From Verrucomicrobiota bacterium (GTDB lineage Bacteria > Verrucomicrobiota > Verrucomicrobiia > Chthoniobacterales > JACTMZ01): a stretch of DNA of 64,000 bases. The stretch is from assembly GCA_027624625.1 (NCBI GenBank), contig JAQBWH010000001.1, positions 73,946 through 137,945 on the forward strand, given 5' to 3'. Made by a program: the position numbers and the translations under genes. Below are positions 14,454 through 24,446 of the stretch, one piece after another (the first letter of the stretch is position 1; the number at the start of each line of letters is the position of its first letter). Under the pieces are notes generated by a model. It did no database searches. It was not told where the DNA came from and worked only from the letters and a program-made list of their open reading frames with translations.

Positions 14454-14792
14454 TCAGGCGACGGCCGCGGTGGCGTCGGCGACCGTCTCGTAGACGCGGA
14501 ACATTTGGTCGAGGCCGGTCAGCTTGAAAAATTCGCTAATTTGCGGGCTGAGGTTGGCCACCGCGAGTTTGCCGCCGCGCATCGACAAAGCTTGCGAGGG
14601 GCGGATGAGGGAACGGATGCCTACACTGGCAATAAAATCGACTCCGCCCATGTCGACAACCAGGGCTTTGCTCGTTTCGTCCCCGGCAACTTCCATCGCC
14701 GCGGCGTGCAGGGCATCGGCGCTGGCCTGATTGAGACGGCCGGTCAGGACAAGGATGGGGATGCCGTTCTCGCTGCGGCGGACGATTTCCAT
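14454..14792 (-). CDS. STAS-domain protein (anti-sigma-factor-antagonist type, RsbV/SpoIIAA-like)
   Basis: 112 aa. Conserved phosphorylatable Ser context VVDMGGVDFIASVGIRSL. Its start overlaps the upstream STAS gene's stop by 1 nt. Confidence 0.85.
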   Translation of the reverse strand: MEIVRRSENGIPILVLTGRLNQASADALHAAAMEVAGDETSKALVVDMGGVDFIASVGIRSLIRPSQALSMRGGKLAVANLSPQISEFFKLTGLDQMFRVYETVADATAAVA

Positions 14793-15136
14793 CAGGAGGC
14801 TTTGGCGGCGGCCACGGCCGCCTCGCGGGTATCGTGGACCGCATAAGCGGTCATGAACTGCGCGATCTCAAAAAGTTCCTTCACTTGCGGTTGGAAACTG
14901 CACACCGAGAGACTGCCGCCGTCGCGCCCCATGCGGCGCCCGGCGAGGAAAAACTCACGGAAGCCGGCACTGCTCACGTATTCGAGGTCGGCCAGGTCGA
15001 TGACCAGGTGCTTGGCTTGCGTCCGGTCGAGCTCGGCGTGCAGGGCGGTTTTGAAGTCGTTGTAGGTGATGGTGTCGATGCGGCCGGAGGGACAGGCGAC
15101 AAGGACATGGCCGTCGGTGAGGAAGGAACATTGCAT
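14792..15136 (-). CDS. STAS-domain protein (second RsbV/SpoIIAA-like paralogue)
   Basis: Start at MQCSFLTDG. Ser context VIDLADLEYVSSAGFREF. Divergent from the histidine kinase gene, 89 bp away. Confidence 0.8.
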   Translation of the reverse strand: MQCSFLTDGHVLVACPSGRIDTITYNDFKTALHAELDRTQAKHLVIDLADLEYVSSAGFREFFLAGRRMGRDGGSLSVCSFQPQVKELFEIAQFMTAYAVHDTREAAVAAAKAS

Positions 15137-15225
15137 GAACTGAAAGATGCCCCTCCGCACCGAAGCCCGGCAAGAAATTTCCGCTTGGGCCGTTGCGGCG
15201 TTGCCGATCGGGCGGCGGGCGGGTT

Positions 15226-18021
15226 ATGGATGGGATGGCATTTATGCGGCGTCTCTTCGGACTGAACACTTTGGCGGGCAAACTCACCCTGTGGACTGCC
15301 TTGGCCGCGGGCGCCATTATGTCCGTGCTCATCCTTTTCGCCTACCGGGCCGCGCGGGCTGAGCTGATCGAAAGCACCAAGCAAAGCGCCTTGGCCGAGG
15401 TCGGGGTCCATGCGGTCGAAATCGACGCGATGGTCGGGCGGGTCGAGTCACTCGTCACCACCATGGCGGCCGTGCAGGGGTTGCGTGGCCCGGACCCGGA
15501 CCCGGATGTCATGCTCGAGCTGCGCCGGATCATGGACAGCTTTCCGGCCAACGAAGTTTTCGGGGCCTATTACACTTTCGAGAATGCGGATTTCCGCGAC
15601 CCGATGTCCATGCCGTGGATCGACCGGAACTCCTATCCTAAAGCGACGATCAACAAGAACGATTTCCACATCGACCAGCCGTCGACCATTTGGTATTGGG
15701 GCGCGAAAAAATCCGGCCAGCTGACCATCAGTGAGCCGTATTTCGACGGCGGCGGTTCGGACGTGACCATGCTCAGCGTCAATGCCCCGGTCTTTGGTCC
15801 GGAGGGGGAATTCTACGGCATTTCGGGTGTCGATATTTCGCTGGACGACATGCAGGAGTTGATTAAAGAGGTCGACATTGCCATGGCTGGAGAAATGGCC
15901 GGGCACGAGTCGGACTTTGCCTACCTGGTCAGCCCGGCGGGAAAGATCATCGCGCACCCCGATGGCGGCCTCATGATCGGCGAGGGAAATCCGGGAGCGA
16001 ATATTTCGCAACTTCCGGCCGGGGTATCAATTCAGGCGACGCCATCCGGCCAAACGACCTACCGCAAACCGGACGGAGCCGAGCGCATTGTTTATTGGGT
16101 CACCGCACCGCTCTCCGGCTGGAAGGTGGTGCTCGATGTGCCCTATGCCACCCTTCTTATTCCGGTGCGTGCCTTGGCTTGGCGGCTCGGCACGGTGGGC
16201 GGGATCGGCCTACTCGTTCTCCTTGGGGCGGTCGGTCTCATTGCCCACCGCGTGGCGGGTCCGCTGCGGCATCTCACCGTCGCGGCGGCGGAACTGGAGG
16301 CCGGGCAAATGACCGGCGGGAAGCTTACGCCCCTGTTGCAGCGCGGCGATGAGGTGGGTGATCTCGGGCGGGCCTTCACCCGCATGGCCGACGAGATCCG
16401 CCAGCGCGAGGCCAGCCTCGCTGCTTGGAACGCCAATTTGGAAAAAACGGTGGCCGAACGCACCTCCGACCTCAAGGACGCGGTCGAGGATGCGGAAGAA
16501 GCGCGCGCCCTGGCGCAGGAGGCGAGCAAGACGAAGAGCGCTTTCCTAGCCAACATGAGCCATGAGCTGCGCACCCCGATGAATGCGATCATCGGCTACG
16601 GCGAGATGTTGCTCGAGGAGGCGGAAGAAACCGGGGAGAAGTGGATGGAGTCCGACCTGCAAAAGATTCTCTCTTCGGCCAAGCACCTCCTGCAACTGAT
16701 CAACGACATCCTCGATCTTTCCAAGATCGAAGCGGGTCGCATGACGGTCTTCCTCGAACCGGTCGACATCGCGCAGGCCGCACGCGACGTGTCCTCCACG
16801 GTGGAACCGCTGGTGGCCAAGAATGGGAATGTCTTTGAACTCAAGTGCCCGGAGGACATCGGCACGATGCGCACCGACCTGACCAAGCTGCGCCAGACCC
16901 TCTTCAACCTCTTGAGCAACGCGTCCAAGTTCACCGAGAAGGGCCGGATCAGGCTGGAGATCACGCGCCGGGCCGACCAGATGGTTTCCTTCGCGGTGAG
17001 CGACACCGGCATCGGAATGACGCCGGAGCAAACGGGCAAACTTTTCGGAGAGTTCGTGCAGGCCGACGCCTCGACCACGCGCAAATACGGCGGCACCGGC
17101 CTCGGGTTGGCCATTAGCCGCAAGTTCTGCCGGTTGCTCGGCGGCGATATCACGGTCCAAAGCGTGCCCGGACAAGGCAGTGCCTTCACTGCGATCTTGC
17201 CGGCCGAAGGCAAGGAGCCGGCCCCGGAACCGGCGGCCGAAGAAGCGGCTGCACCGAAAGCTGCGCCCGAAACCCGGTCCCCGGCAACCCGCGGCACTTT
17301 GCTCGTGATCGACGATGATCCGGATTCACGGGATTTGCTCAAGCGTATGCTCGAGAAGGACGGGTATGCCGTGCTCACCGCGTCCGGTGGGGCGGAAGGC
17401 CTCGCGCTGGCCAAGGAGCACCAACCCGAACTGATCACCCTCGATGTCATGATGCCGAGCATGGATGGCTGGGCGGTGCTCTCCGCCCTCAAGGCCGACC
17501 CCGCAACGGCTGAAATCCCGGTGGTCATGATGACCATGGTCGACGACAAGCCGATGGGTTTCGCGCTGGGTGCCTCCGATTACCTGACCAAGCCGATCGA
17601 CAAGTCCCGGGTGTTACAGGTCGTGTCGCGGCGGGTCGCTCATCATGGGGATGATGTTCTCGTCGTCGAGGATGACCCCATGGCGGCTGATATCGTGCGG
17701 CGCACGCTCGAGGCGGACGGTCGCCCGTCGCGCCATGCCCGCAACGGCCTCGAGGCCCTGCGACTGGTTCATGAGTCGCGTCCCGCGCTCATCGTCCTTG
17801 ATTTGATGATGCCGGAGATGGATGGCTTCGCCTTCCTTGACGCCCTGCGTGCGGAGGGGCCGGATTTTGCCGCTATTCCCGTCGTGGTGCTGACGGCCAA
17901 AGATCTCACGGCGGATGAGCGCGGATTTTTGTCCGGCCGCGTGCAAGAGACCTTGCGCAAGGGGGCGGAGCAGCGCGAGAATCTGCTCGAAACAATCCGT
18001 CGCAATCTGAATCCTCTTTGA
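15226..18021 (+). CDS. Hybrid sensor histidine kinase: dCache - TM - HAMP - HisKA - HATPase_c - REC - REC
   Basis: Periplasmic Cache-like region between two TM segments. HAMP ([16 protein letters not shown]). H-box [16 protein letters not shown]-boxes ([15 protein letters not shown]). Two receiver domains (LLVIDDDP...[10 protein letters not shown] and VLVVEDDP...[10 protein letters not shown]). Confidence 0.9.
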
Positions 18022-18025
18022 ATCC

Positions 18026-18394
18026 ATGGCCAAAATTCTCATCGTCGAAGACAACGAAATGAACCGCGATATGCTCTCGCGCCGTTTGGAGCGGCGAGGC
18101 TTCGCCATCGTCATGGCCATGGACGGCCAGCAGGGCGTCGAGATGACACGGAGCGAAAGGCCCGACCTTATCCTCATGGACATGAGTCTGCCGGTCATGG
18201 ACGGCTGGGCGGCCACGCAGGCGATCAAGGCGGACCCCGAGTTGTCGAAGATCCCGGTCATAGCCCTGACCGCGCACGCCATGGCGGGCGACCGGGAAAA
18301 GGCGATGGCCGCGGGTTGCGACGACTACGATACCAAGCCGATCGAATTACCGCGCTTGCTCGAAAAAATCGCAAAGTTTCTGCCCGATGTCTGA
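18026..18394 (+). CDS. Single-domain response regulator (CheY-like receiver)
   Basis: 122 aa. ILIVEDNEMN...LILMDMSLPVMDG...TKP receiver signature. Starts 4 nt after the kinase stop. Confidence 0.9.
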   Translation: MAKILIVEDNEMNRDMLSRRLERRGFAIVMAMDGQQGVEMTRSERPDLILMDMSLPVMDGWAATQAIKADPELSKIPVIALTAHAMAGDREKAMAAGCDDYDTKPIELPRLLEKIAKFLPDV

Positions 18395-19859
18395 TCCTGC
18401 GGCATGCGGAGAGGAAGCGGTGGCCGCGTTGCGCCACGATCTACGCACGCCGCTCAACCAGATCATCGGATATTCCGAACTGGTCGCGGAGGATCTCGAG
18501 GGTGATGGGCATGCACGGACGCGGCAAGATCTGGAAAAGATCGGGCGGGCGGCCCGCGGGTTGGCTGACTTGATCACGCGGGAGATCCAGCCGGGGCGGA
18601 TAGCCTTGGTGGGGGAGCGGGCCGAAACGGCCAATGGAGAGTTCGCCGCCGGAGTGAACGATCACGGCGTTATTCCCGCCGCCGAACCGGTGGAAGCCGT
18701 CCCGCTGGCCGCCGAGACGGCGAAGATTCTCATTGTCGACGATCAGGAAGAGAATTGCACGGTGCTGCAGCGCCGCTTGGAAAAGGAAGGCCACACCTGT
18801 GCGGCGGTTTATGACGGAGCCACGGCCTTGGAGCGGCTGGCCGTGGAGGATTTCGATCTTGTCCTGCTCGACATCATGATGCCGGGGATCGACGGCCGCG
18901 AGGTCCTGCGCCGGATCAAGACAGACGAAAAACTGCGGCACGTTCCGGTCATCATGATTTCCGCTCTCGATCAGATCGAAAGTGTGGTCGCGTGCATCGA
19001 GCAGGGGGCGGAAGATTATCTGCCCAAACCGTTCAATCCCGTGCTCCTGCGGGCGCGGATCGGATCCTCGCTCGACCGCAAACGCCTGCGCGATGCCGAA
19101 CAGGCCGCCTTCGCCGCGCTGCAAGAAAGCCAGGCCAAGCTGGCCACGGAACTTTCCGAGGCGGCGGCTTACGTGCAAAGCGTGCTGCCTGCGCCGATCA
19201 AGGACGGCCCGGTCAGCGCCTCATGGCAATTCCTGCCGTCCTCCTCGCTCGGAGGCGATGCCTTCGGCTACGGGCCCGAAAAGGACGGCAAGTTCGGCAT
19301 CTGTCTGCTCGACGTCTGCGGACACGGGGTCGGCGCCGCCTTGCTCTCGATCAGTGTGCTTAACGTCATCCGGGCCGAATCCCTGCCCGGAGTGAATTTT
19401 TCCGATCCCGGCGAGGTGCTCACCGGGCTGAACAACGCGTTCCCCATGGAGAAACACGGCGAGATGTTTTTCACCGCGTGGTGCGGCATTTACGATCCAT
19501 CCACCCGCAGCATGCGCTTCGCGGGCGGGGGCCATCCGCCGTCCATTCTCGTGCGGGCTGACGGCACCACGGAAATCCTTGCGGCCAAGGGACCGGTCAT
19601 CGGCGCCATGCCGGGAATGAAGTTCGCCTCCGCCGAAGCGGTCATTCCGCCGGCCGCGCGGCTTTTCGTGTTTAGCGACGGGGCTTACGAGATCGTGCGG
19701 CACGACGGCTCGATGATGTCGCACGACGATCTGCGTGAACTGCTGGCCCGCGCGCCTCAGGAGAACGCGGCGGCCTGGACCATGGAGCAACTGCGCGCGC
19801 TCAACAGCCAACCGGTGTTTGACGACGACGTCTCGCTGGTGGAACTCTGTTTCCCGTGA
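18387..19859 (+). CDS. H-box/DHp segment - receiver - PP2C (SpoIIE/RsbU-type) serine phosphatase
   Basis: N-terminus LRHDLRTPLNQIIGYSELV is a HisKA-like H-box with no ATPase domain. REC follows (ILIVDDQEEN...LLDIMMPGIDG). C-terminal PP2C/SpoIIE motifs (GGDAFGY, LLDVCGHGVGAALLS, FVFSDG). 8-nt overlap with the upstream gene. Confidence 0.85.
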   Translation: MSDPAACGEEAVAALRHDLRTPLNQIIGYSELVAEDLEGDGHARTRQDLEKIGRAARGLADLITREIQPGRIALVGERAETANGEFAAGVNDHGVIPAAEPVEAVPLAAETAKILIVDDQEENCTVLQRRLEKEGHTCAAVYDGATALERLAVEDFDLVLLDIMMPGIDGREVLRRIKTDEKLRHVPVIMISALDQIESVVACIEQGAEDYLPKPFNPVLLRARIGSSLDRKRLRDAEQAAFAALQESQAKLATELSEAAAYVQSVLPAPIKDGPVSASWQFLPSSSLGGDAFGYGPEKDGKFGICLLDVCGHGVGAALLSISVLNVIRAESLPGVNFSDPGEVLTGLNNAFPMEKHGEMFFTAWCGIYDPSTRSMRFAGGGHPPSILVRADGTTEILAAKGPVIGAMPGMKFASAEAVIPPAARLFVFSDGAYEIVRHDGSMMSHDDLRELLARAPQENAAAWTMEQLRALNSQPVFDDDVSLVELCFP

Positions 19860-20269
19860 CCGCGACCGCCGATTTTGTCTCCGACCGCTCCGAGTTGACC
19901 AAGCTCGAGGGGTTTACCGAGGATTTCGCGCAGGGGGCCGGGCTGTCCGACAAAGATCTTTTCGCTTTGCAGATTATTGTGGAGGAGTTGGTCACCAACG
20001 TCATCGATTACGGAGGCGTTCCCGCCGGCGAGCACGCCGTGCGCGTGGATCTGTCCACGGAGGACGGCGAACTCCTCATCCGGATGACCGACCGTGGCGC
20101 GGAATACAATCCGCTCTTGCGTGAGGATCCTGACGTCACCCTGTCTGCCGAGGAACGTCCGATCGGCGGGCTTGGCGTGCACTTCTGCAAGAAGCTGACC
20201 GACGCGCAGAGTTACGCGCGGGTGGACGGGCAAAACGTGCTCACCCTGACCAAAAAACTCGCCGCATGA
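19856..20269 (+). CDS. RsbW/SpoIIAB-type serine protein kinase (anti-sigma regulatory factor, HATPase_c_2)
   Basis: 137 aa. N-box EELVTNVIDYG, DRGAEYNP, GGLGVHFCKKL. 4-nt overlaps with the genes on both sides. Confidence 0.8.
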   Translation: MTATADFVSDRSELTKLEGFTEDFAQGAGLSDKDLFALQIIVEELVTNVIDYGGVPAGEHAVRVDLSTEDGELLIRMTDRGAEYNPLLREDPDVTLSAEERPIGGLGVHFCKKLTDAQSYARVDGQNVLTLTKKLAA

Positions 20270-21558
20270 AAATGTCCCGCCGCGAGGAAAACGGTGTCCG
20301 CGTGGCATCTTTGGCCGGCCGGTTGGACGGCTTCGGGGCCAAGGAGGCGGAGCAGACGTTGGCAGGGGAGAATGTCACGACGCCGCTGGTGCTTGATTGC
20401 GCCGGGTTGTCGTATCTGAGCAGTGCCGGAGTGCGGTTCCTGCTTGGTTTGCAAAAGGCCGCGGCGGCGGCCGGGTTCCCCTTCGCCTTGGCCGGCCTGC
20501 AACCGTTCTGTGCCTCGGTCATGGAAATGTCCGGCCTCTCCGGAATGATTCCGGTTTATGCTTCGGTCGACGATGCCACGCGCGCCATGCAAGCAGGCGG
20601 TGCGGCGATCGGGGCCGGTGAATGCCACGAAACGGCGGCAGGGACGTTCGCCTTTCACACCGTGGGGAGCACCGCGGGAACGATCGATATCCTCGGCGAC
20701 ATCGCCAACGTGATCGAGTGCGCCATCACGTCGGAGTTGGTGGCGGGCAAACCCTTTTTCGAGACGGAATACTCGCTCGGGCTCGGCGCGCTGGGCGGTG
20801 CACCGGAAGATTATTTGCCGGTCATGGGCGAAGCCATGATGGCCGCCGGGACCATGGTCTGGCTGCCGACCGACGGCAACGACACGCCGGATTACATGAT
20901 CCCGCGCAAGGCTTCGACTGCCGTGGTCTTGCACACCGGTTTCAACGCCAGCATCCGCGGGGGGTTCAACGAGTTCGCCGAGTTCACCGCCGCACCCGGA
21001 CGTCCGGCCAGCGTGCGTGAAATCTATCGAGCCCTCTTCGATCTGGCCAAGGAGCGTCGTCCGGACTACCGCGGCGTTCTCGGCCTCGCCATGCGCGCTG
21101 AAATCCACGAGGCCTTCGGGGCCGGCCTGACCAAATCACCCCTGCTCTCCAACCGCCCGGCCAACGGCAAGATGATCACCGATCCGTCGAACTACGACGC
21201 GTGGTTCGAGTCGGACAAGACGCCGCGCCACCAAGGAACGACCGCGCTGATTTGCGGGGCGGGGGAGGATCTTACGGCCGATTTGTCCCGAATCGACCAG
21301 GAACTCCTGCGGCGGATGTTCTACATCAATCTCGCGAACAAAGCCTCGCAAGACGAGGTGCTGCACAACCACGCCGTCTTTTTCCGCCACGCCCCGCCCC
21401 CCGCCGGGACGCAGGACATGGATGTCGAGATGCGTCGGGTGGTTGAGGAAGGTGAGTTTGTCGATATGAGGCACCTGCTCGATCAGACTACGGTGACCTC
21501 GGCGCTGATTGCCGTGAATTATGTCCAAGAGGTGCGTGAAGACGCGATAAAAGGTTGA
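20266..21558 (+). CDS. STAS domain fused to a ~320-aa C-terminal domain of unknown function
   Basis: The first ~105 aa are a STAS domain (VLDCAGLSYLSSAGVRFL). For residues ~110-430 I recognise no family motif. 4-nt overlap with the kinase gene. Confidence 0.8.
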   Translation: MKMSRREENGVRVASLAGRLDGFGAKEAEQTLAGENVTTPLVLDCAGLSYLSSAGVRFLLGLQKAAAAAGFPFALAGLQPFCASVMEMSGLSGMIPVYASVDDATRAMQAGGAAIGAGECHETAAGTFAFHTVGSTAGTIDILGDIANVIECAITSELVAGKPFFETEYSLGLGALGGAPEDYLPVMGEAMMAAGTMVWLPTDGNDTPDYMIPRKASTAVVLHTGFNASIRGGFNEFAEFTAAPGRPASVREIYRALFDLAKERRPDYRGVLGLAMRAEIHEAFGAGLTKSPLLSNRPANGKMITDPSNYDAWFESDKTPRHQGTTALICGAGEDLTADLSRIDQELLRRMFYINLANKASQDEVLHNHAVFFRHAPPPAGTQDMDVEMRRVVEEGEFVDMRHLLDQTTVTSALIAVNYVQEVREDAIKG

Positions 21559-21774
21559 AACAAGCACGACGGAAGCGCGCTTCGTTTGGCGGAAACCAGC
21601 CGGGACCAGACCAAGTTCCATCCCGAAGAACATGACGAAGAGAGCCAGAGGCAAAGCACCTGTTTTGAGCAACTCGGATGGCATCCCGTCAAATTAGCCG
21701 AGCGACCAGGGAAGGCCGAGGCCGGAGCGTGCCCGTTGGCTTCGGCGCGCTCAGGCCGAGCGGACGCGCCGTGG

Positions 21775-22029
21775 TTAACAGTCCGCGCTTTCCAGCGCGG
21801 AATCAACGTGATCAGCGGCAACCTCCAGTTGCTCTTTCAGGTCGTGCAGGGCAGCCCAGGACTGTGCGATGTCCGGTCCCCATTCCCCCTCGAGCCCTTC
21901 GAGTTTGGCGTTGGGCGAGGGATGGCAGGCGAGGTTTTCCTCGATCAAGCACGCGATGGTCCGCAGGGCGGGTCCATGGTAGGGGAGGTGCAGTTCGAGA
22001 CGGTGCGAGACTTTCGTCGTCTGTGGCAT
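21775..22029 (-). CDS. Hypothetical small protein (84 aa)
   Basis: Internal ATG (MPQTTKVSHRLELHL...). Non-repetitive, acidic and helical-looking composition, in an otherwise empty gap. No family recognised. Confidence 0.3.
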   Translation of the reverse strand: MPQTTKVSHRLELHLPYHGPALRTIACLIEENLACHPSPNAKLEGLEGEWGPDIAQSWAALHDLKEQLEVAADHVDSALESADC

Positions 22030-22083
22030 AGGGGACAATCTTCCACCGAATCGGCAGCCGCGCAAGCCGCAGGACAAACTTTT

Positions 22084-22737
22084 TCAGCCTTCGGCCAGGG
22101 AGGCGAGGAGTTCGGGGGTGACCTCCGCAAGGCCGGGCACGGCTGCATTGGCTGCCCCGAGGGTGTCGAGCGGGTTGGTCGTGGCCACCGCCACGACCGG
22201 CATGCCGGCTCGCTGGGCGGCTTCGATGCCGACCAAGGCATCCTCGATGACGACACATTCGGCCGGGGCGAAACCAAGTTTTTCCGCGGCGAGGAGAAAG
22301 ATGGAGGGGTCCGGTTTGCCGTGCACGACGTCTTCGCCGGAAACGATCACGCGGAAAAAATCACGCAGGTTCATCAGGTCGAGGGGAAGATCCAGGTTGG
22401 CGCGTTCGGTCGACGATCCGATGGCGCAGGGGATCTCCCGGGCTCGGAGGGCCGCGAGGAGCTCGCGCACTCCGGGCAGCGGTTGCATGCCTTTTTCGCG
22501 CACGAGCGCGCGGTAGGTTTCTTCCTTTTCCCGGGCGAGCTCGGCCACTTCGCGGGGATCCCGGGTCCAACCGAGGTCGGGGATGATTACGTTGTTCTTC
22601 TTGCCGAAGCCACGCTTGAAGTGGTCGGGAGGAAGCGGGAGTCCGCGTCGAGCGGCGAGAATTTCCCAACTGCGCTCGTGGTGGCCCGAGGAGTCAACAA
22701 CGACCCCGTCCCAATCAAAGATGACGGCGGAGAGCAT
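22084..22737 (-). CDS. HAD-superfamily hydrolase (beta-phosphoglucomutase-like subfamily IA)
   Basis: Start [16 protein letters not shown] (DxDG motif I). GSS motif II. GKPDP and EDALVGIEAA motifs III/IV. Its ATG overlaps the ilvD stop by 1 nt. Confidence 0.85.
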   Translation of the reverse strand: MLSAVIFDWDGVVVDSSGHHERSWEILAARRGLPLPPDHFKRGFGKKNNVIIPDLGWTRDPREVAELAREKEETYRALVREKGMQPLPGVRELLAALRAREIPCAIGSSTERANLDLPLDLMNLRDFFRVIVSGEDVVHGKPDPSIFLLAAEKLGFAPAECVVIEDALVGIEAAQRAGMPVVAVATTNPLDTLGAANAAVPGLAEVTPELLASLAEG

Positions 22738-24446
22738 CAAAGCCCGGCATCGGTCACGGCCCCGGTCGAAGCGCTGGTGGCGCTGGCTGCGAATTTGGCC
22801 AGCACTCCGCGGCGGTAGCGCGGGGCGGGTTTTTTCCACTTGGCCTTGCGCCGTTTCATTTCGGCGGCCGGAATGTCGAGGGTGAGGCGGTGCTTGATCG
22901 CGTCGATTTCGATGGTGTCGCCGTTTTTGACCAAGGCAAGCGGCCCGCCATCGAAGGCTTCCGGAGTGATGTGGCCGACGACGAACCCGTGGGTGCCGCC
23001 GGAGAAACGTCCGTCGGTGACCAAGGCCACATCTTTGCCCAGGCCTTTGCCCATCACCGCGGAGGTGGGTCCGAGCATTTCGCGCATGCCGGGGCCGCCC
23101 TTGGGTCCCTCGTAGCGGATAACAATGACGTCACCCTTTTTCACCGAGCCTTTGAGGATGTTTTCGAGGGCGGCTTCTTCCGAGTCGAAGACCCGGGCTG
23201 TGCCGCGGAATTTTTCGCCTTCTTTGCCGGAAATTTTCGCCACGGCCCCGCCGGGTGCGAGGTTGCCGTAGAGGATGACGAGATGGCTGTCTTTCTTGAC
23301 CGGATCTTTGAGCGGCCGGATGACTTGCTGGCCTTTGGGGTAGGGTTGGAAAGGCGCGAGGTTCTGCTTGAGGGTCTTGCCGGTCACGGTGAGGCAGTCG
23401 CCGTGGAGCAGGCCGGCCGAGAGGAGTTGCTTCATGAGCGGAACGATGCCGCCGATGGCGACAAGTTCGGACATGAGATATTTGCCGCTTGGTTTGAGGT
23501 CGGCCAGCACCGGGACGCGGCGGCCGATCTTGGTGAAGTCGTCGATGTGCAATTTGACCTTGGCGGCGTGGGCCATGGCGAGGAGGTGGAGCACGGCATT
23601 GGTCGAACCGCCCAGCGCGATGATCAGGGTGATGGCATTTTCAAAGGACTCGCGGGTCAGAATGTCCGAGGGAACGATGCCCCGCTTGAGCAGGTTCACC
23701 ACCGCGGCGCCGGCGTCGCGCGCGTCGGTCTTCTTGTGCGCGGAGATGGCGACCTGCGCGGAGCTGTTGGGCAGGCTCATGCCCATGGCTTCGATCGCCG
23801 AGGCCATGGTGTTGGCCGTGTACATGCCGCCGCAAGATCCGGCGCCGGGAATGGCGCAGGATTCGATCTTCTGCAGTTGTTTGTCGTTGATCGTGCCGGC
23901 TGCGCGTTGGCCCACAGCCTCGAACACGGAGACCACGTCGAGGTTTTTGCCGTTGAGGCAGCCGGGAAGAATGGTGCCGCCGTAGACAAAGACCGCGGGG
24001 CGGTTGAGGCGGGAGATGGCCAGCATGCAGCCGGGCATGTTTTTATCGCATCCGCCGATGGCAACAAAGCCGTCGAAGCCTTCGCAACCGATGACCGTTT
24101 CGATCGAGTCGGCAATCACTTCGCGCGAGACGAGCGAGTATTTCATCCCCTCGGTCCCCATGGAAATGCCGTCCGAAATGGTGATGGTGTTGAAGATGGT
24201 GGCTTTGCCTCCGGCCGCGTTGGCCCCACCGGCAGCTTCGCGGGCGAGCACGTCGAGGTGCATGTTGCAAGGGGTGACCATGCTCCAGGTGGAGGCGATG
24301 GCTACCTGCGGCTTGGCGAAATCTTTGGCCTGGAACCCGACCGCATAGAGCATGGCGCGGCTCGGAGCGCGTTCGGGTCCGTCAAGGACCTGCGAGGAAT
24401 AACGGCGAAGGGGTGATTTGTTGATGCGGGCGGATTTTTTGCTCAC
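22737..24446 (-). CDS. ilvD: Dihydroxy-acid dehydratase
   Basis: 569 aa with ILVD/EDD signature regions ([21 protein letters not shown]-type segment [14 protein letters not shown]). Confidence 0.95.

What the first reader, a model, noticed from the sequence alone, without database searches (positions are those of the whole stretch)
18387..19859. PP2C phosphatase carrying its own H-box (DHp without ATPase) ahead of the receiver domain
The N-terminal ~70 aa read AALRHDLRTPLNQIIGYSELVAEDLE...IGRAARGLADLI. This is a HisKA-type dimerisation/phosphoacceptor helix pair, but no HATPase domain follows. Instead come a linker, a REC domain and a SpoIIE/PP2C domain. Together with the upstream hybrid kinase (two REC domains) and the stand-alone REC, this looks like an H1-D1-H2-D2 relay. 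H2 would be a DHp fragment playing the role of an Hpt domain, built into the final effector.
Basis: partly seen in the sequence, partly recalled or inferred. Interest (0 to 1): 0.55.

Follow-up and report, generated by a model that had tools for sequence, protein, structure and literature searches.

The report
Kinase-less His-box fused to receiver-phosphatase
A Chthoniobacter signalling phosphatase carries, ahead of its receiver domain, the phospho-histidine helix pair of a sensor kinase without the ATP-binding half; this layout is widespread and unstudied, and the helix pair most likely passes phosphate between receiver domains.

Summary
ORF 18387..19859 (490 aa) has a HisKA/DHp helical hairpin (aa 10-64, 37.6 bits against a cutoff of 26.9) with an intact H-box (R16-H17-D18-L-R-T21-P22). 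It has no HATPase and no Hpt. A disordered ~45-aa tether, an intact REC, a 48-residue helix and an intact PP2C follow.

It sits in a translationally coupled operon: hybrid kinase (REC-REC), solo REC, DHp-REC-PP2C, RsbW-like kinase, STAS fusion.

The layout is not unique. Of 133 kinase-less REC-PP2C cluster representatives, 76 carry such a DHp. 41 of these carry it in tandem, usually with His kept in only one copy. 70 of 76 keep at least one His. An Arg before the His marks the family and never occurs in CA-linked DHps. A solo REC gene usually lies just upstream, and no DHp-bearing locus has an Hpt.

The relay idea (kinase, then REC, then DHp His17, then own REC D162, then PP2C) is the best-supported reading, but it is unproven. 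The same operon type also exists with neither DHp nor Hpt, and six relatives lost all His yet kept the REC Asp. A built-in REC phosphatase is the main rival.

Verdict: a new variant of a known kind, of moderate interest.

The parts
14454..14792 (-). Stand-alone STAS (anti-sigma antagonist-like) gene, divergent from the kinase operon
   Evidence: Pfam STAS 66.6 bits; NCBIfam ant_ant_sig 65 bits. Also present in L002.
14792..15160 (-). Second stand-alone STAS gene, in tandem with the first
   Evidence: Pfam STAS 49.7 bits.
15193..18021 (+). Hybrid sensor histidine kinase: dCache-HAMP-HisKA(aa 448-515)-HATPase(562-672)-REC(704-811)-REC(~825-935), no Hpt. The true start is probably the ATG near 15226.
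   Evidence: Pfam. The NCBIfam best matches are TorS, HrmK and BarA-type hybrid kinases. The local Hpt HMM finds nothing.
18026..18394 (+). Stand-alone receiver (122 aa); candidate intermediate receiver (D1)
   Evidence: Pfam Response_reg 98 bits. Its best NCBIfam matches are the receiver regions of the hybrid kinases BarA, HrmK and TorS. A homologous solo REC gene lies in the operon upstream in 8 of 10 DHp+ lineages.
18387..19859 (+). DHp-REC-PP2C protein (490 aa), the finding itself. Its start overlaps the REC stop by 8 nt (ATGTCTGA).
18411..18584 (+). CA-less DHp/HisKA helical hairpin (aa 9-66). H-box R16-H17-D18-L-R-T21-P22; His17 codon at 18435-18437.
   Evidence: Pfam HisKA 37.6 bits. 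AF2 helices 9-36 and 40-66. Invariant H-box. 38% identical to the operon kinase's own DHp, E 1e-12.
18585..18722 (+). Variable, predicted-disordered tether (aa 67-112) between DHp and REC
   Evidence: pLDDT below 50 for aa 75-108. Identity 0.35 within the family. In 76 relatives the tether is never shorter than 24 aa and has a median of 43.
18726..19061 (+). Receiver domain (aa 114-225) with D118, D119, D162 (acceptor; codon 18870-18872), S192 and K214
   Evidence: Pfam 103 bits. These residues are invariant. The best NCBIfam matches are the terminal regulators PleD, RssB, RpaB and PhoB.
19038..19181 (+). Long helix (aa 218-265) joining REC alpha5 to the phosphatase
   Evidence: AF2 H218-265. 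It is the most conserved region in the family, at 0.89 identity. The analogous crossing linker controls PPM phosphatases (PMC12143880).
19284..19850 (+). SpoIIE/PP2C (PPM) phosphatase domain (aa 300-488) with D291, D309, G312-H-G, D431 and D479-481
   Evidence: Pfam 134 bits. These residues are invariant. The closest solved structure is P. aeruginosa RssB, 3eq2/3f7a.
19856..20269 (+). RsbW/SpoIIAB-like serine kinase (HATPase_c_2); its start overlaps the PP2C stop (GTGA)
   Evidence: Pfam HATPase_c_2 72.8 bits.
20266..21558 (+). STAS domain (aa 6-104, with the YLSSAG serine motif) fused to a 320-aa conserved domain of unknown fold. Likely PP2C substrate and pathway output.
   Evidence: Pfam STAS 49.8 bits. 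S52, S53, A54 and G55 are invariant. The C-terminal domain has no family or PDB hit.

Best explanation
The N-terminal hairpin is a kinase-derived DHp that has lost its ATP-binding partner and works as a tethered histidine phosphotransfer site (H2). The proposed sequence is as follows. The Cache-sensing hybrid kinase autophosphorylates (H1). Phosphate moves to an intermediate receiver, most likely the conserved stand-alone REC and possibly also the kinase's own REC domains (D1). It then moves to His17 of the DHp, which dimerises into a four-helix bundle. From there, across the flexible ~45-residue tether, it reaches D162 of the protein's own receiver (D2). Phospho-REC orders the long 218-265 helix and switches on the PP2C dimer. 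The PP2C dephosphorylates a STAS protein that the neighbouring RsbW-like kinase phosphorylates, which flips a partner switch.

Shown: the domains, their intact catalytic residues, their conservation, the gene order, the family-wide pattern and the absence of Hpt. Inferred: every phosphotransfer step, its direction, the dimerisation and the identity of the STAS substrate. Because His-Asp transfer is reversible, the same site could also drain phosphate from the receiver.
For: - The H-box is invariant at 68-89% identity, and the DHp is as conserved as REC and PP2C while the linker drifts.
- Across 50%-identity cluster representatives, 76 of 133 CA-less REC-PP2C proteins carry the DHp, and 70 of those 76 keep a His at the acceptor position. 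H+1 is D or E in 75 of 86 domains, and H+4 is T, S or N in 80 of 86. A pure scaffold would not need this.
- 41 relatives carry tandem DHps. Only 10 keep both His and 29 keep exactly one. This is what an intramolecular four-helix bundle with a single active His, the geometry of an Hpt, would predict.
- The family has its own signature. Arg precedes the His in 68 of 86 (representatives) and 14 of 16 (loci) CA-less domains, but in 0 of 43 CA-linked DHps.
- There is no Hpt in the protein, the operon or the window. Hpt is present in 0 of 6 DHp+ loci against 9 of 15 DHp-less REC-PP2C loci with a neighbouring kinase, p=0.019.
- A 121-125-aa solo REC gene lies in the operon upstream in 8 of 10 DHp+ lineages against 6 of 21 DHp-less loci, p=0.018.
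- L087 is plain kinase | solo REC | DHp-repeat-REC-cyclase. P0384 is a DHp-only gene placed after hybrid kinase | solo REC.
- The solo REC looks most like hybrid-kinase receivers (BarA, HrmK, TorS). The PP2C's REC looks most like terminal regulators (PleD, RssB, PhoB).
- The tether is never shorter than 24 aa, which is long enough for the DHp to reach its own REC.
- There are precedents for a DHp-fold His passing phosphate between two receivers: ChpT (PMC3433190) and PhyT in a partner-switch stress pathway (PMC5898713). Hybrid kinases feed the REC-PP2C protein HsbR through HptB (PMC6482189). REC-linker-PPM activation is described in PMC12143880.
Against: - No biochemical test exists for any member.
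- The same operon type (HK-REC-REC | REC | REC-PP2C) occurs with neither DHp nor Hpt in L003, L004, L092 and L093. Plain HK | REC | REC-PP2C occurs in L101 and L113. So an H2 is not obligatory for this wiring.
- The Hpt/DHp complementarity is confounded by operon type, and the loci are not phylogenetically independent.
- Six DHp+ relatives lost every His yet keep the REC Asp. The fold therefore has some His-independent value.
- The phosphatase residue T21 (H+4) is as conserved as the His.
- Spo0B, ChpT and PhyT all retain a CA-like domain that is missing here.
- The DHp specificity positions (H+7 N, H+11 G, H+12 Y) are the same as in the operon kinase. The kinase itself could therefore serve every REC directly.
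Confidence: 0.45

Rival explanations
1. Built-in receiver phosphatase. The DHp never carries phosphate forward. It docks on the protein's own phospho-REC, or on the solo REC, and catalyses its hydrolysis through the HisKA H-[E/D]-x-x-[T/N] motif. This would give the PP2C switch a fast reset and insulation from cross-talk, while the hybrid kinase phosphorylates D162 directly.
For: - The motif H17-D18-L-R-T21 is intact and T21 is nearly invariant. H+4 is T, S or N in 80 of 86 family domains.
- Operons of the same type work without any H2 (L003, L004, L092, L093, L101, L113). Direct kinase-to-REC transfer is therefore plausible.
- Six relatives lost His but keep the fold and the REC Asp, and four of the five with an alignable His-less box keep T/N at +4.
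- Isolated HisKA domains are regarded as carrying the phosphatase activity, and this was proposed for 'HisKA, no HATPase' proteins (PMC5847659 section 7).
- From my own knowledge: EnvZ domain A alone dephosphorylates OmpR~P (Zhu et al. 2000), and H+4 T/N is the phosphatase residue (Willett and Kirby 2012).
Against: - His and the H+1 acid, which are not needed for HisKA phosphatase activity, are as conserved as T21.
- In tandem forms it is the His that defines the retained copy, while T/N at +4 is lost in most degenerate copies.
- The negative association with Hpt and the positive one with a solo REC are not predicted by a reset function.
Confidence: 0.25
2. Split kinase or kinase docking. The CA-less DHp pairs with the hybrid kinase, by DHp-DHp heterodimerisation or as a foreign substrate of its CA domain. 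His17 is then phosphorylated directly from ATP in trans and passes the phosphate to D162. The kinase's own REC domains and the solo REC are sinks or modulators.
For: - The DHp is 38% identical to the operon kinase's DHp (E 1e-12).
- CA-less DHps are most similar (45-57%) to the DHps of the kinases encoded beside such operons.
- The genes are translationally coupled.
- Sensor kinases do communicate through their DHp domains, as in GacS/RetS (PMC5992135, listed; the detail is from my own knowledge).
- From my own knowledge: separated EnvZ CA and DHp domains reconstitute His phosphorylation (Park et al. 1998).
Against: - The tandem DHp-DHp relatives, with one degenerate copy, would form an internal bundle and could not heterodimerise, yet they belong to the same family.
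- The window's DHp is not closest to its own kinase: that kinase ranks 9th of 68.
- Arg at H-1 never occurs in any CA-linked DHp (0 of 43), which suggests the site is no longer shaped for a CA domain.
- Orphan members lie far from any kinase (L083, L109).
Confidence: 0.1
3. Structural dimerisation handle only. The four-helix bundle simply holds two chains together so that REC phosphorylation can align the linker helices and PP2C domains, as the N-terminal helical domain does in RsbU. The H-box is inherited baggage.
For: - PPM phosphatases of this class act as dimers joined by crossing linkers, and RsbU has an N-terminal four-helix-bundle dimerisation domain (PMC12143880).
- Six relatives lack any His.
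Against: - Baggage would not stay invariant. The H-box is the most conserved part of the DHp, both at 68-89% identity and across 30-50% identity.
- The DHp is joined to REC by a disordered, variable tether rather than a helix, so it is poorly placed to align the domains.
- Tandem forms would be monomeric bundles and so would not dimerise the chains.
Confidence: 0.1

Closest known systems
HptB-HsbR-HsbA pathway of Pseudomonas aeruginosa (and CrsR-CrsA of Shewanella)
   Same: Hybrid kinases feed a REC-PP2C regulator through a histidine phosphotransfer step. The PP2C and an RsbW-like kinase set the phosphorylation state of a STAS protein in a partner switch (PMC6482189). One relative, P0124, even has the HsbR-like C-terminal HATPase_c_2 fused on.
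   Different: There H2 is a free Hpt protein. Here no Hpt exists, and a HisKA-type hairpin is fused to the regulator itself. The RsbW-like kinase is a separate gene, and one STAS is fused to an unknown 320-aa domain.
Spo0B, ChpT and PhyT: DHp-fold histidine phosphotransferases
   Same: A kinase-derived helical hairpin with a conserved His shuttles phosphate from one receiver to another: Spo0F-Spo0B-Spo0A, CckA-ChpT-CtrA (PMC3433190), and Pak-SdrG-PhyT-PhyR in a partner-switch stress response (PMC5898713). The gene order solo REC then DHp then REC mirrors Spo0F, Spo0B, Spo0A.
   Different: Those proteins are free-standing and keep a degenerate CA-like domain. This one is a bare hairpin of about 60 aa with no CA remnant, fused in cis to the terminal regulator by a disordered tether. 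It scores as ordinary HisKA and carries a family-specific Arg before the His.
RsbK-RsbY of Bacillus cereus, and P. aeruginosa RssB (PDB 3eq2/3f7a)
   Same: All are REC-linker-PP2C response regulators controlling a stress partner switch, and RsbK is a hybrid kinase with a C-terminal REC (PMC4574943). RssB is the closest solved structure to aa 111-484 (phmmer E 3.7e-28, Foldseek E 5.6e-24).
   Different: Neither has any DHp, and RsbY is thought to be phosphorylated directly by RsbK (my own knowledge).
'HisKA, no HATPase' proteins (called 'possible incomplete histidine kinase' or 'phosphotransfer protein' in P2CS)
   Same: These have a HisKA domain with a conserved His and no ATPase. A phosphotransfer or phosphatase role has been proposed but not tested (PMC5847659 section 7; PMC4618731).
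   Different: The described cases are sensor-domain-HisKA proteins of archaea or stand-alone HisKA proteins. The N-terminal DHp(-DHp)-tether-REC-output module, its Arg-His signature and its tandem one-His form have not been described in any paper I could find.
Hybrid histidine kinases (DHp-CA-REC)
   Same: The DHp is of the hybrid-kinase type (xHELRTPLNxIIGY), and it sits in one chain with a REC that it could serve intramolecularly. The nearest DHps belong to the hybrid kinases of these same operons.
   Different: The CA domain is deleted, so the protein cannot autophosphorylate. The REC here is of the terminal, output-controlling type.

Membership tests
HisKA / DHp domain (Pfam PF00512) | Scores above the curated Pfam gathering threshold | tested here: met
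   37.6 bits against a cutoff of 26.9, E 2.3e-9, for aa 10-64. The N-terminal fragment scanned alone gives 40.5 bits.
HisKA / DHp domain (Pfam PF00512) | H-box with the phospho-acceptor His followed by E/D, T/N at +4 and Pro at +5 | tested here: met
   H17-D18-L19-R20-T21-P22. H17, D18 and P22 are invariant and T21 is conserved at 90% or more in 18 homologues.
HisKA / DHp domain (Pfam PF00512) | Two-helix hairpin that pairs into a four-helix bundle | tested here: inconclusive
   AF2 predicts helices 9-36 and 40-66 with pLDDT 70-82. Dimerisation could not be modelled with the tools available.
Functional histidine kinase | Catalytic ATP-binding (HATPase_c / CA) domain after the DHp | tested here: not met
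   There is no HATPase_c hit at E<=1 in the protein. The DHp is followed by a disordered linker and then REC. The protein is therefore not a kinase.
Hpt domain (Pfam PF01627) | Match to the Hpt profile, including the HxxKG motif | tested here: not met
   No Hpt hit at E<=10 for aa 1-111. A local HMM built from six Hpt domains of related loci finds nothing in any window ORF. The residues after the His are DLRTP, not xxKG.
Hpt domain (Pfam PF01627) | Accepts phosphate from one REC and donates it to another | not testable with these tools
   This needs in vitro phosphotransfer. Only indirect comparative support is available.
Spo0B/ChpT/PhyT-type phosphotransferase | DHp-like hairpin with a conserved phosphorylatable His | tested here: met
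Spo0B/ChpT/PhyT-type phosphotransferase | C-terminal degenerate CA-like alpha/beta domain; free-standing protein | tested here: not met
   There is no such domain. The hairpin is fused to REC-PP2C.
REC-PP2C response regulator (RsbY / RssB-Pa / HsbR class) | Receiver with the acidic pair, acceptor Asp, Ser/Thr and Lys | tested here: met
   D118, D119, D162, S192 and K214 are invariant. Pfam Response_reg scores 103 bits.
REC-PP2C response regulator (RsbY / RssB-Pa / HsbR class) | PPM/SpoIIE domain with metal-binding aspartates, joined to REC by a helical linker | tested here: met
   SpoIIE scores 134 bits. D291, D309, D431 and D479-481 are invariant. AF2 predicts a helix at 218-265. RssB (3eq2/3f7a) is the best structural match.
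Partner-switching module (RsbW-like kinase + STAS + PP2C) | Neighbouring HATPase_c_2 serine kinase and STAS protein with the phosphorylatable serine motif | tested here: met
   HATPase_c_2 scores 72.8 bits at 19856..20269. There are three STAS genes (20266.., 14454.. and 14792..). YLSSAG is invariant in the fused one.
Partner-switching module (RsbW-like kinase + STAS + PP2C) | An identified target, such as a sigma factor, held by the RsbW-like protein | tested here: not met
   No sigma factor is found among the flanking genes scanned between 9168 and 26572. The target is unknown.

The most novel reading that the evidence does not exclude
The Arg-His, CA-less DHp hairpin would be a widespread and unrecognised third kind of histidine phosphotransfer module, alongside Hpt domains and Spo0B/ChpT-type proteins. 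It would act as a dimeric bundle when single and as a single-chain, one-His bundle when tandem. Fused by a flexible tether to terminal receivers of PP2C phosphatases and class III cyclases, it would let an output protein carry its own H2, which a dedicated solo receiver then charges. This would turn ordinary kinases into four-step relays without any Hpt gene.
Probability: 0.35. Interest if true: 0.65.

Novelty: new variant of a known kind. Interest (0 to 1): 0.5.

Why it matters
Multistep phosphorelays are normally recognised in genomes by an Hpt domain or a Spo0B/ChpT homologue. If a bare HisKA hairpin fused to the final regulator does that job, many 'response regulator' or 'SpoIIE family phosphatase' annotations hide a complete extra relay step. 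More than half of the closest REC-PP2C clusters carry it, as do some receiver-cyclases. Censuses of phosphorelays would then undercount them.

The family also offers a very small, natural test system: a 60-residue DHp with no CA domain. It could be used to ask what makes a DHp a phosphotransferase rather than a phosphatase. The Arg-before-His signature and the tandem one-His forms give immediate mutational handles.

If the hairpin instead proves to be a built-in phosphatase, it would be a clear natural case of the HisKA phosphatase activity separated from kinase activity. Either result is informative, but the concept is an extension of known two-component logic rather than a new principle.

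Tried and rejected
1. A profile search with 35 CA-less DHp segments (A3) was meant to list all architectures carrying this DHp. It returned only 63-121-aa hits. Most of those inspected are contig-end fragments or have frameshift-like tails, so it gave no architecture census. Only P0384 looked like a real stand-alone DHp gene, and its DNA could not be read.

2. Cluster look-ups for taxonomy gave almost no organism names. Breadth is therefore documented only for Chthoniobacterales/Spartobacteria/Verrucomicrobiota and one Desulfobacteraceae cluster. Truncated source names hint at other phyla.

3. I asked whether the DHp is a recent copy of its own operon's kinase DHp. It is not. The own kinase ranks 9th of 68, and the nearest DHps are those of kinases from related operons.

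4. I compared DHp specificity positions and REC alpha1 residues among the four receivers. All are of the same type, so this does not tell which REC the DHp serves.

5. The AF2 monomer gives no coordinates here, so the His17-D162 distance and the dimer could not be examined.

6. AF2 and Foldseek on the STAS fusion identified only the STAS part. The conserved core of the C-terminal domain was modelled below pLDDT 50. The weak hits to acetolactate decarboxylase and a PPC protein (rmsd above 7 A) were discarded.

7. I considered that the neighbouring RsbW-like GHKL kinase might phosphorylate His17. I set this aside because its STAS partners fully explain its presence, and most DHp+ loci show no such gene next to the DHp protein.

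8. I considered that the DHp is a pseudogene remnant of a kinase. I rejected this because it is in frame, invariant and family-wide.
Full report
**Observation**

ORF 18387..19859 (+) encodes a 490-aa protein. Pfam places HisKA (PF00512) at aa 10-64 with 37.6 bits, above the gathering cutoff of 26.9 (E 2.3e-9). Response_reg lies at 114-225 and SpoIIE at 300-488. There is no HATPase_c. When the first 111 aa are scanned alone at E<=10, the only hit is HisKA, with no Hpt.

The H-box reads R16-H17-D18-L-R-T21-P22, and the His codon is at 18435-18437. AlphaFold2 (mean pLDDT 74.7) predicts the following:
- a helical hairpin (9-36 and 40-66);
- a disordered stretch (75-108, pLDDT below 50);
- a confident receiver;
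- a single long helix at 218-265;
- the phosphatase.

The closest solved structure to aa 111-484 is the REC-PP2C protein RssB of P. aeruginosa, 3eq2/3f7a. The hairpin's nearest solved relatives are kinase DHps.

**It is under selection, not a remnant**

In 18 homologues of 68-89% identity (alignment A1), L15 R16 H17 D18 L19 R20 P22 N24 Q25 I26 I27 G28 Y29 are invariant. Mean identity to the window protein by region is:

| Region | Mean identity |
|---|---|
| DHp | 0.84 |
| REC | 0.86 |
| Long helix | 0.89 |
| PP2C | 0.78 |
| Tether | 0.35 |

. The receiver keeps D118, D119, D162, S192 and K214. The phosphatase keeps D291, D309, G312-H-G, D431 and D479-481. All three modules therefore look functional.

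**The locus**

The organism is a Chthoniobacter (Verrucomicrobiota). Two genome contigs share 87-89% identity and the same gene order.

On the + strand five genes are packed tightly, and three of the four junctions overlap (8 nt ATGTCTGA, then GTGA, then ATGA; the kinase and the solo REC are 4 nt apart):
1. A dCache-HAMP-HisKA-HATPase-REC-REC hybrid kinase with no Hpt.
2. A 122-aa receiver.
3. The DHp-REC-PP2C protein.
4. An RsbW-like HATPase_c_2 kinase.
5. A STAS domain fused to a 320-aa unknown domain.

Two further STAS genes lie divergently upstream. The flanking genes that could be assigned are unrelated: DnaJ, PIG-L, a PD-(D/E)XK nuclease, a HAD hydrolase and IlvD. No sigma factor is present. 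This is a partner-switching module driven by a two-component input.

**How common is the layout?**

An exhaustive HMMER search of 50%-identity cluster representatives gave 5,638 hits below 1e-30. I parsed the best 150 with a family HMM for the DHp. Of these, 133 are CA-less REC-PP2C proteins:
- 76 carry an N-terminal CA-less DHp, 35 as a single copy and 41 in tandem.
- 70 of the 76 keep a His at the acceptor position in at least one copy.
- Among the tandem forms, 10 keep both His, 29 keep exactly one, and 2 keep none.

The residue before the His is Arg in 68 of 86 CA-less domains, and in 14 of 16 in fetched loci. In all 43 CA-linked DHps examined it is Ser or Ala. The CA-less hairpin is thus a distinct, old subfamily.

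Its nearest relatives (45-57% identity) are the DHps of the hybrid kinases encoded beside such operons. The window's own kinase is not its nearest relative, ranking 9th of 68.

The same DHp(-DHp)-REC module also precedes class III cyclase domains in L081, L082 and L087. L087 has five DHp-like repeats. NCBI and JGI name these proteins 'response regulator', 'SpoIIE family protein phosphatase' or 'RsbU'. I found no paper describing the architecture.

**Comparative tests of the relay idea**

*Hpt complementarity.* Among DHp-less REC-PP2C loci with a neighbouring kinase, 9 of 15 encode an Hpt. It lies in the kinase (L005, L009, L010, L011, L012, L100), in a partially read REC-containing ORF (L007), or as a separate ORF (L006, L014). 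None of 6 DHp+ lineages does (Fisher p=0.019).

*Solo REC association.* A 121-125-aa solo REC gene lies in the operon upstream in 8 of 10 DHp+ lineages, against 6 of 21 DHp-less loci (p=0.018).

*Relay-like gene orders.* L087 reads plain kinase | solo REC | DHp-repeat-REC-cyclase. The HisKA-only gene P0384 follows hybrid kinase | solo REC on at least nine contigs.

*Receiver types.* The window's solo REC resembles the receivers of BarA, HrmK and TorS-type hybrid kinases. The PP2C's receiver resembles terminal regulators.

*Tether length.* The tether between the last DHp and REC is never shorter than 24 aa and has a median of 43.

These facts fit a Spo0F/Spo0B/Spo0A-like chain in which the Spo0B-like element is fused to the final regulator. 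They also suggest that D1 is the solo REC.

**What argues against it**

- The two association tests are confounded. Loci fall into two operon types: kinase-REC-REC-Hpt with REC-PP2C, and kinase-REC-REC | solo REC | REC-PP2C. The DHp occurs only in the second type.
- Within that type, L003, L004, L092 and L093 have neither DHp nor Hpt. Two further loci, L101 and L113, read plain kinase | REC | REC-PP2C and also have neither. A second His is therefore not obligatory there.
- The loci are not phylogenetically independent.
- Six DHp+ representatives have lost every His yet keep the receiver Asp.
- T21, the residue linked to HisKA phosphatase activity, is as conserved as the His.
- The DHp shares the alpha1 positions H+7, H+11 and H+12 (N, G, Y) with the operon kinase. 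The kinase could therefore serve every receiver itself.

**Weighing the mechanisms**

A purely structural role is unlikely. The H-box is the best conserved part of the hairpin, and the hairpin is attached by a floppy tether rather than a helix.

Heterodimerisation with the kinase is hard to reconcile with the tandem forms, which should fold on themselves, and with the Arg-His signature that no CA-linked DHp shows.

That leaves a catalytic His-Asp role. I favour phosphotransfer (H2, probably reversible) at about 0.45 for three reasons:
- His and the H+1 acid are retained.
- In tandem forms the His defines the surviving copy.
- The Hpt and solo REC associations point the same way.

A dedicated cis-acting receiver phosphatase is a serious rival at about 0.25. 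The two are not exclusive, because PhyT combines transfer with a second, regulatory role, sequestering PhyR (PMC5898713).

Downstream, phospho-REC most likely orders the 218-265 helix and activates a PP2C dimer, as shown for RsbU and inferred for REC-PPM proteins (PMC12143880). The PP2C would then dephosphorylate one or more of the three STAS proteins that the RsbW-like kinase phosphorylates. All of these steps are inferred.

**Comparison with what is known**

The wiring most resembles HptB-HsbR-HsbA, where hybrid kinases act through Hpt on a REC-PP2C regulator and STAS (PMC6482189). The chemistry most resembles Spo0B, ChpT and PhyT.

Membership tests give these results:
- It is a HisKA domain (score, H-box and hairpin all met).
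- It is not a kinase (no CA domain).
- It is not an Hpt (profile not met).
- It is not a Spo0B/ChpT-type protein (no CA-like domain, not free-standing).
- It is a REC-PP2C regulator inside a partner-switch module (all sequence features met, target unknown).

'HisKA, no HATPase' proteins have been noted in censuses, with the same two untested hypotheses (PMC5847659 section 7; PMC4618731).

**Verdict**

This is a real, conserved and widespread but unstudied variant. Novelty: a new variant of a known kind. Interest: about 0.5.

Noticed in passing
window 20266..21558 (+): The last gene of the operon fuses a STAS domain (aa 6-104) to a 320-aa domain that is strongly conserved (for example KPFFETEYSLGLG...WLPTDGNDTPDYMIPRKAST). 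The domain has no Pfam, NCBIfam or PDB match. Of the 120 best of 802 homologues, 115 carry STAS; the other five are shorter proteins of 210-371 aa. Most of the few named ones are from Chthoniobacterales or other Verrucomicrobiota. AF2 models its core below pLDDT 50, and Foldseek recognises only the STAS part. It may be the real output of the partner switch.
   Followed up: partly
window 14454..14792 (-) and 14792..15160 (-): Two further stand-alone STAS genes sit in tandem, divergent from the kinase operon. The locus therefore has three STAS proteins for one RsbW-like kinase and one PP2C, and there is no sigma factor among the flanking genes scanned between 9168 and 26572.
   Followed up: partly
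L081 6367-8004 (+) and 9728-12637 (-); L082 1403-2794; L087 8001-10502: The same CA-less DHp(-DHp)-REC module is fused to class III adenylate/guanylate cyclase domains. These genes often lie next to a DHp-REC-PP2C paralogue and behind the same solo REC. The L087 protein (P0251) has five DHp-like repeats, of which two keep the RHDLRTP box.
   Followed up: partly
relatives P0121-P0270 and loci L081-L094: Arg immediately before the phospho-acceptor His marks the CA-less DHp family (68 of 86 and 14 of 16). It never occurs in the 43 CA-linked DHps examined, which have Ser or Ala. What the Arg does is unexplained.
   Followed up: partly
contigs carrying P0384 (no DNA available): A 117-aa HisKA-only gene with the LRHDLRTPLNQIIGY box follows a hybrid kinase and a 125-aa solo REC on at least nine contigs. 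It may be a free-standing version of the same DHp. A frameshifted gene call could not be excluded.
   Followed up: partly
window 17665..17997 (kinase REC2, aa ~825-935): The kinase's second receiver is atypical. Its conserved Lys is followed by Gly instead of Pro, and a Thr replaces the aromatic switch residue, although the acceptor Asp is present. It may be a regulatory receiver rather than a relay receiver.
   Followed up: no
relatives P0146, P0161, P0166, P0178, P0215, P0248: Six DHp-bearing REC-PP2C representatives have lost every acceptor His but keep the receiver Asp. Conversely, P0153 and P0189 keep a His but have lost the receiver Asp (to Ala and Asn).
   Followed up: partly
window 21586..22818 (+): A 410-aa ORF with no family hit and a low-complexity, Gly/Arg-rich translation overlaps a HAD hydrolase gene on the opposite strand (22084..22839). 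It is probably not a gene.
   Followed up: no
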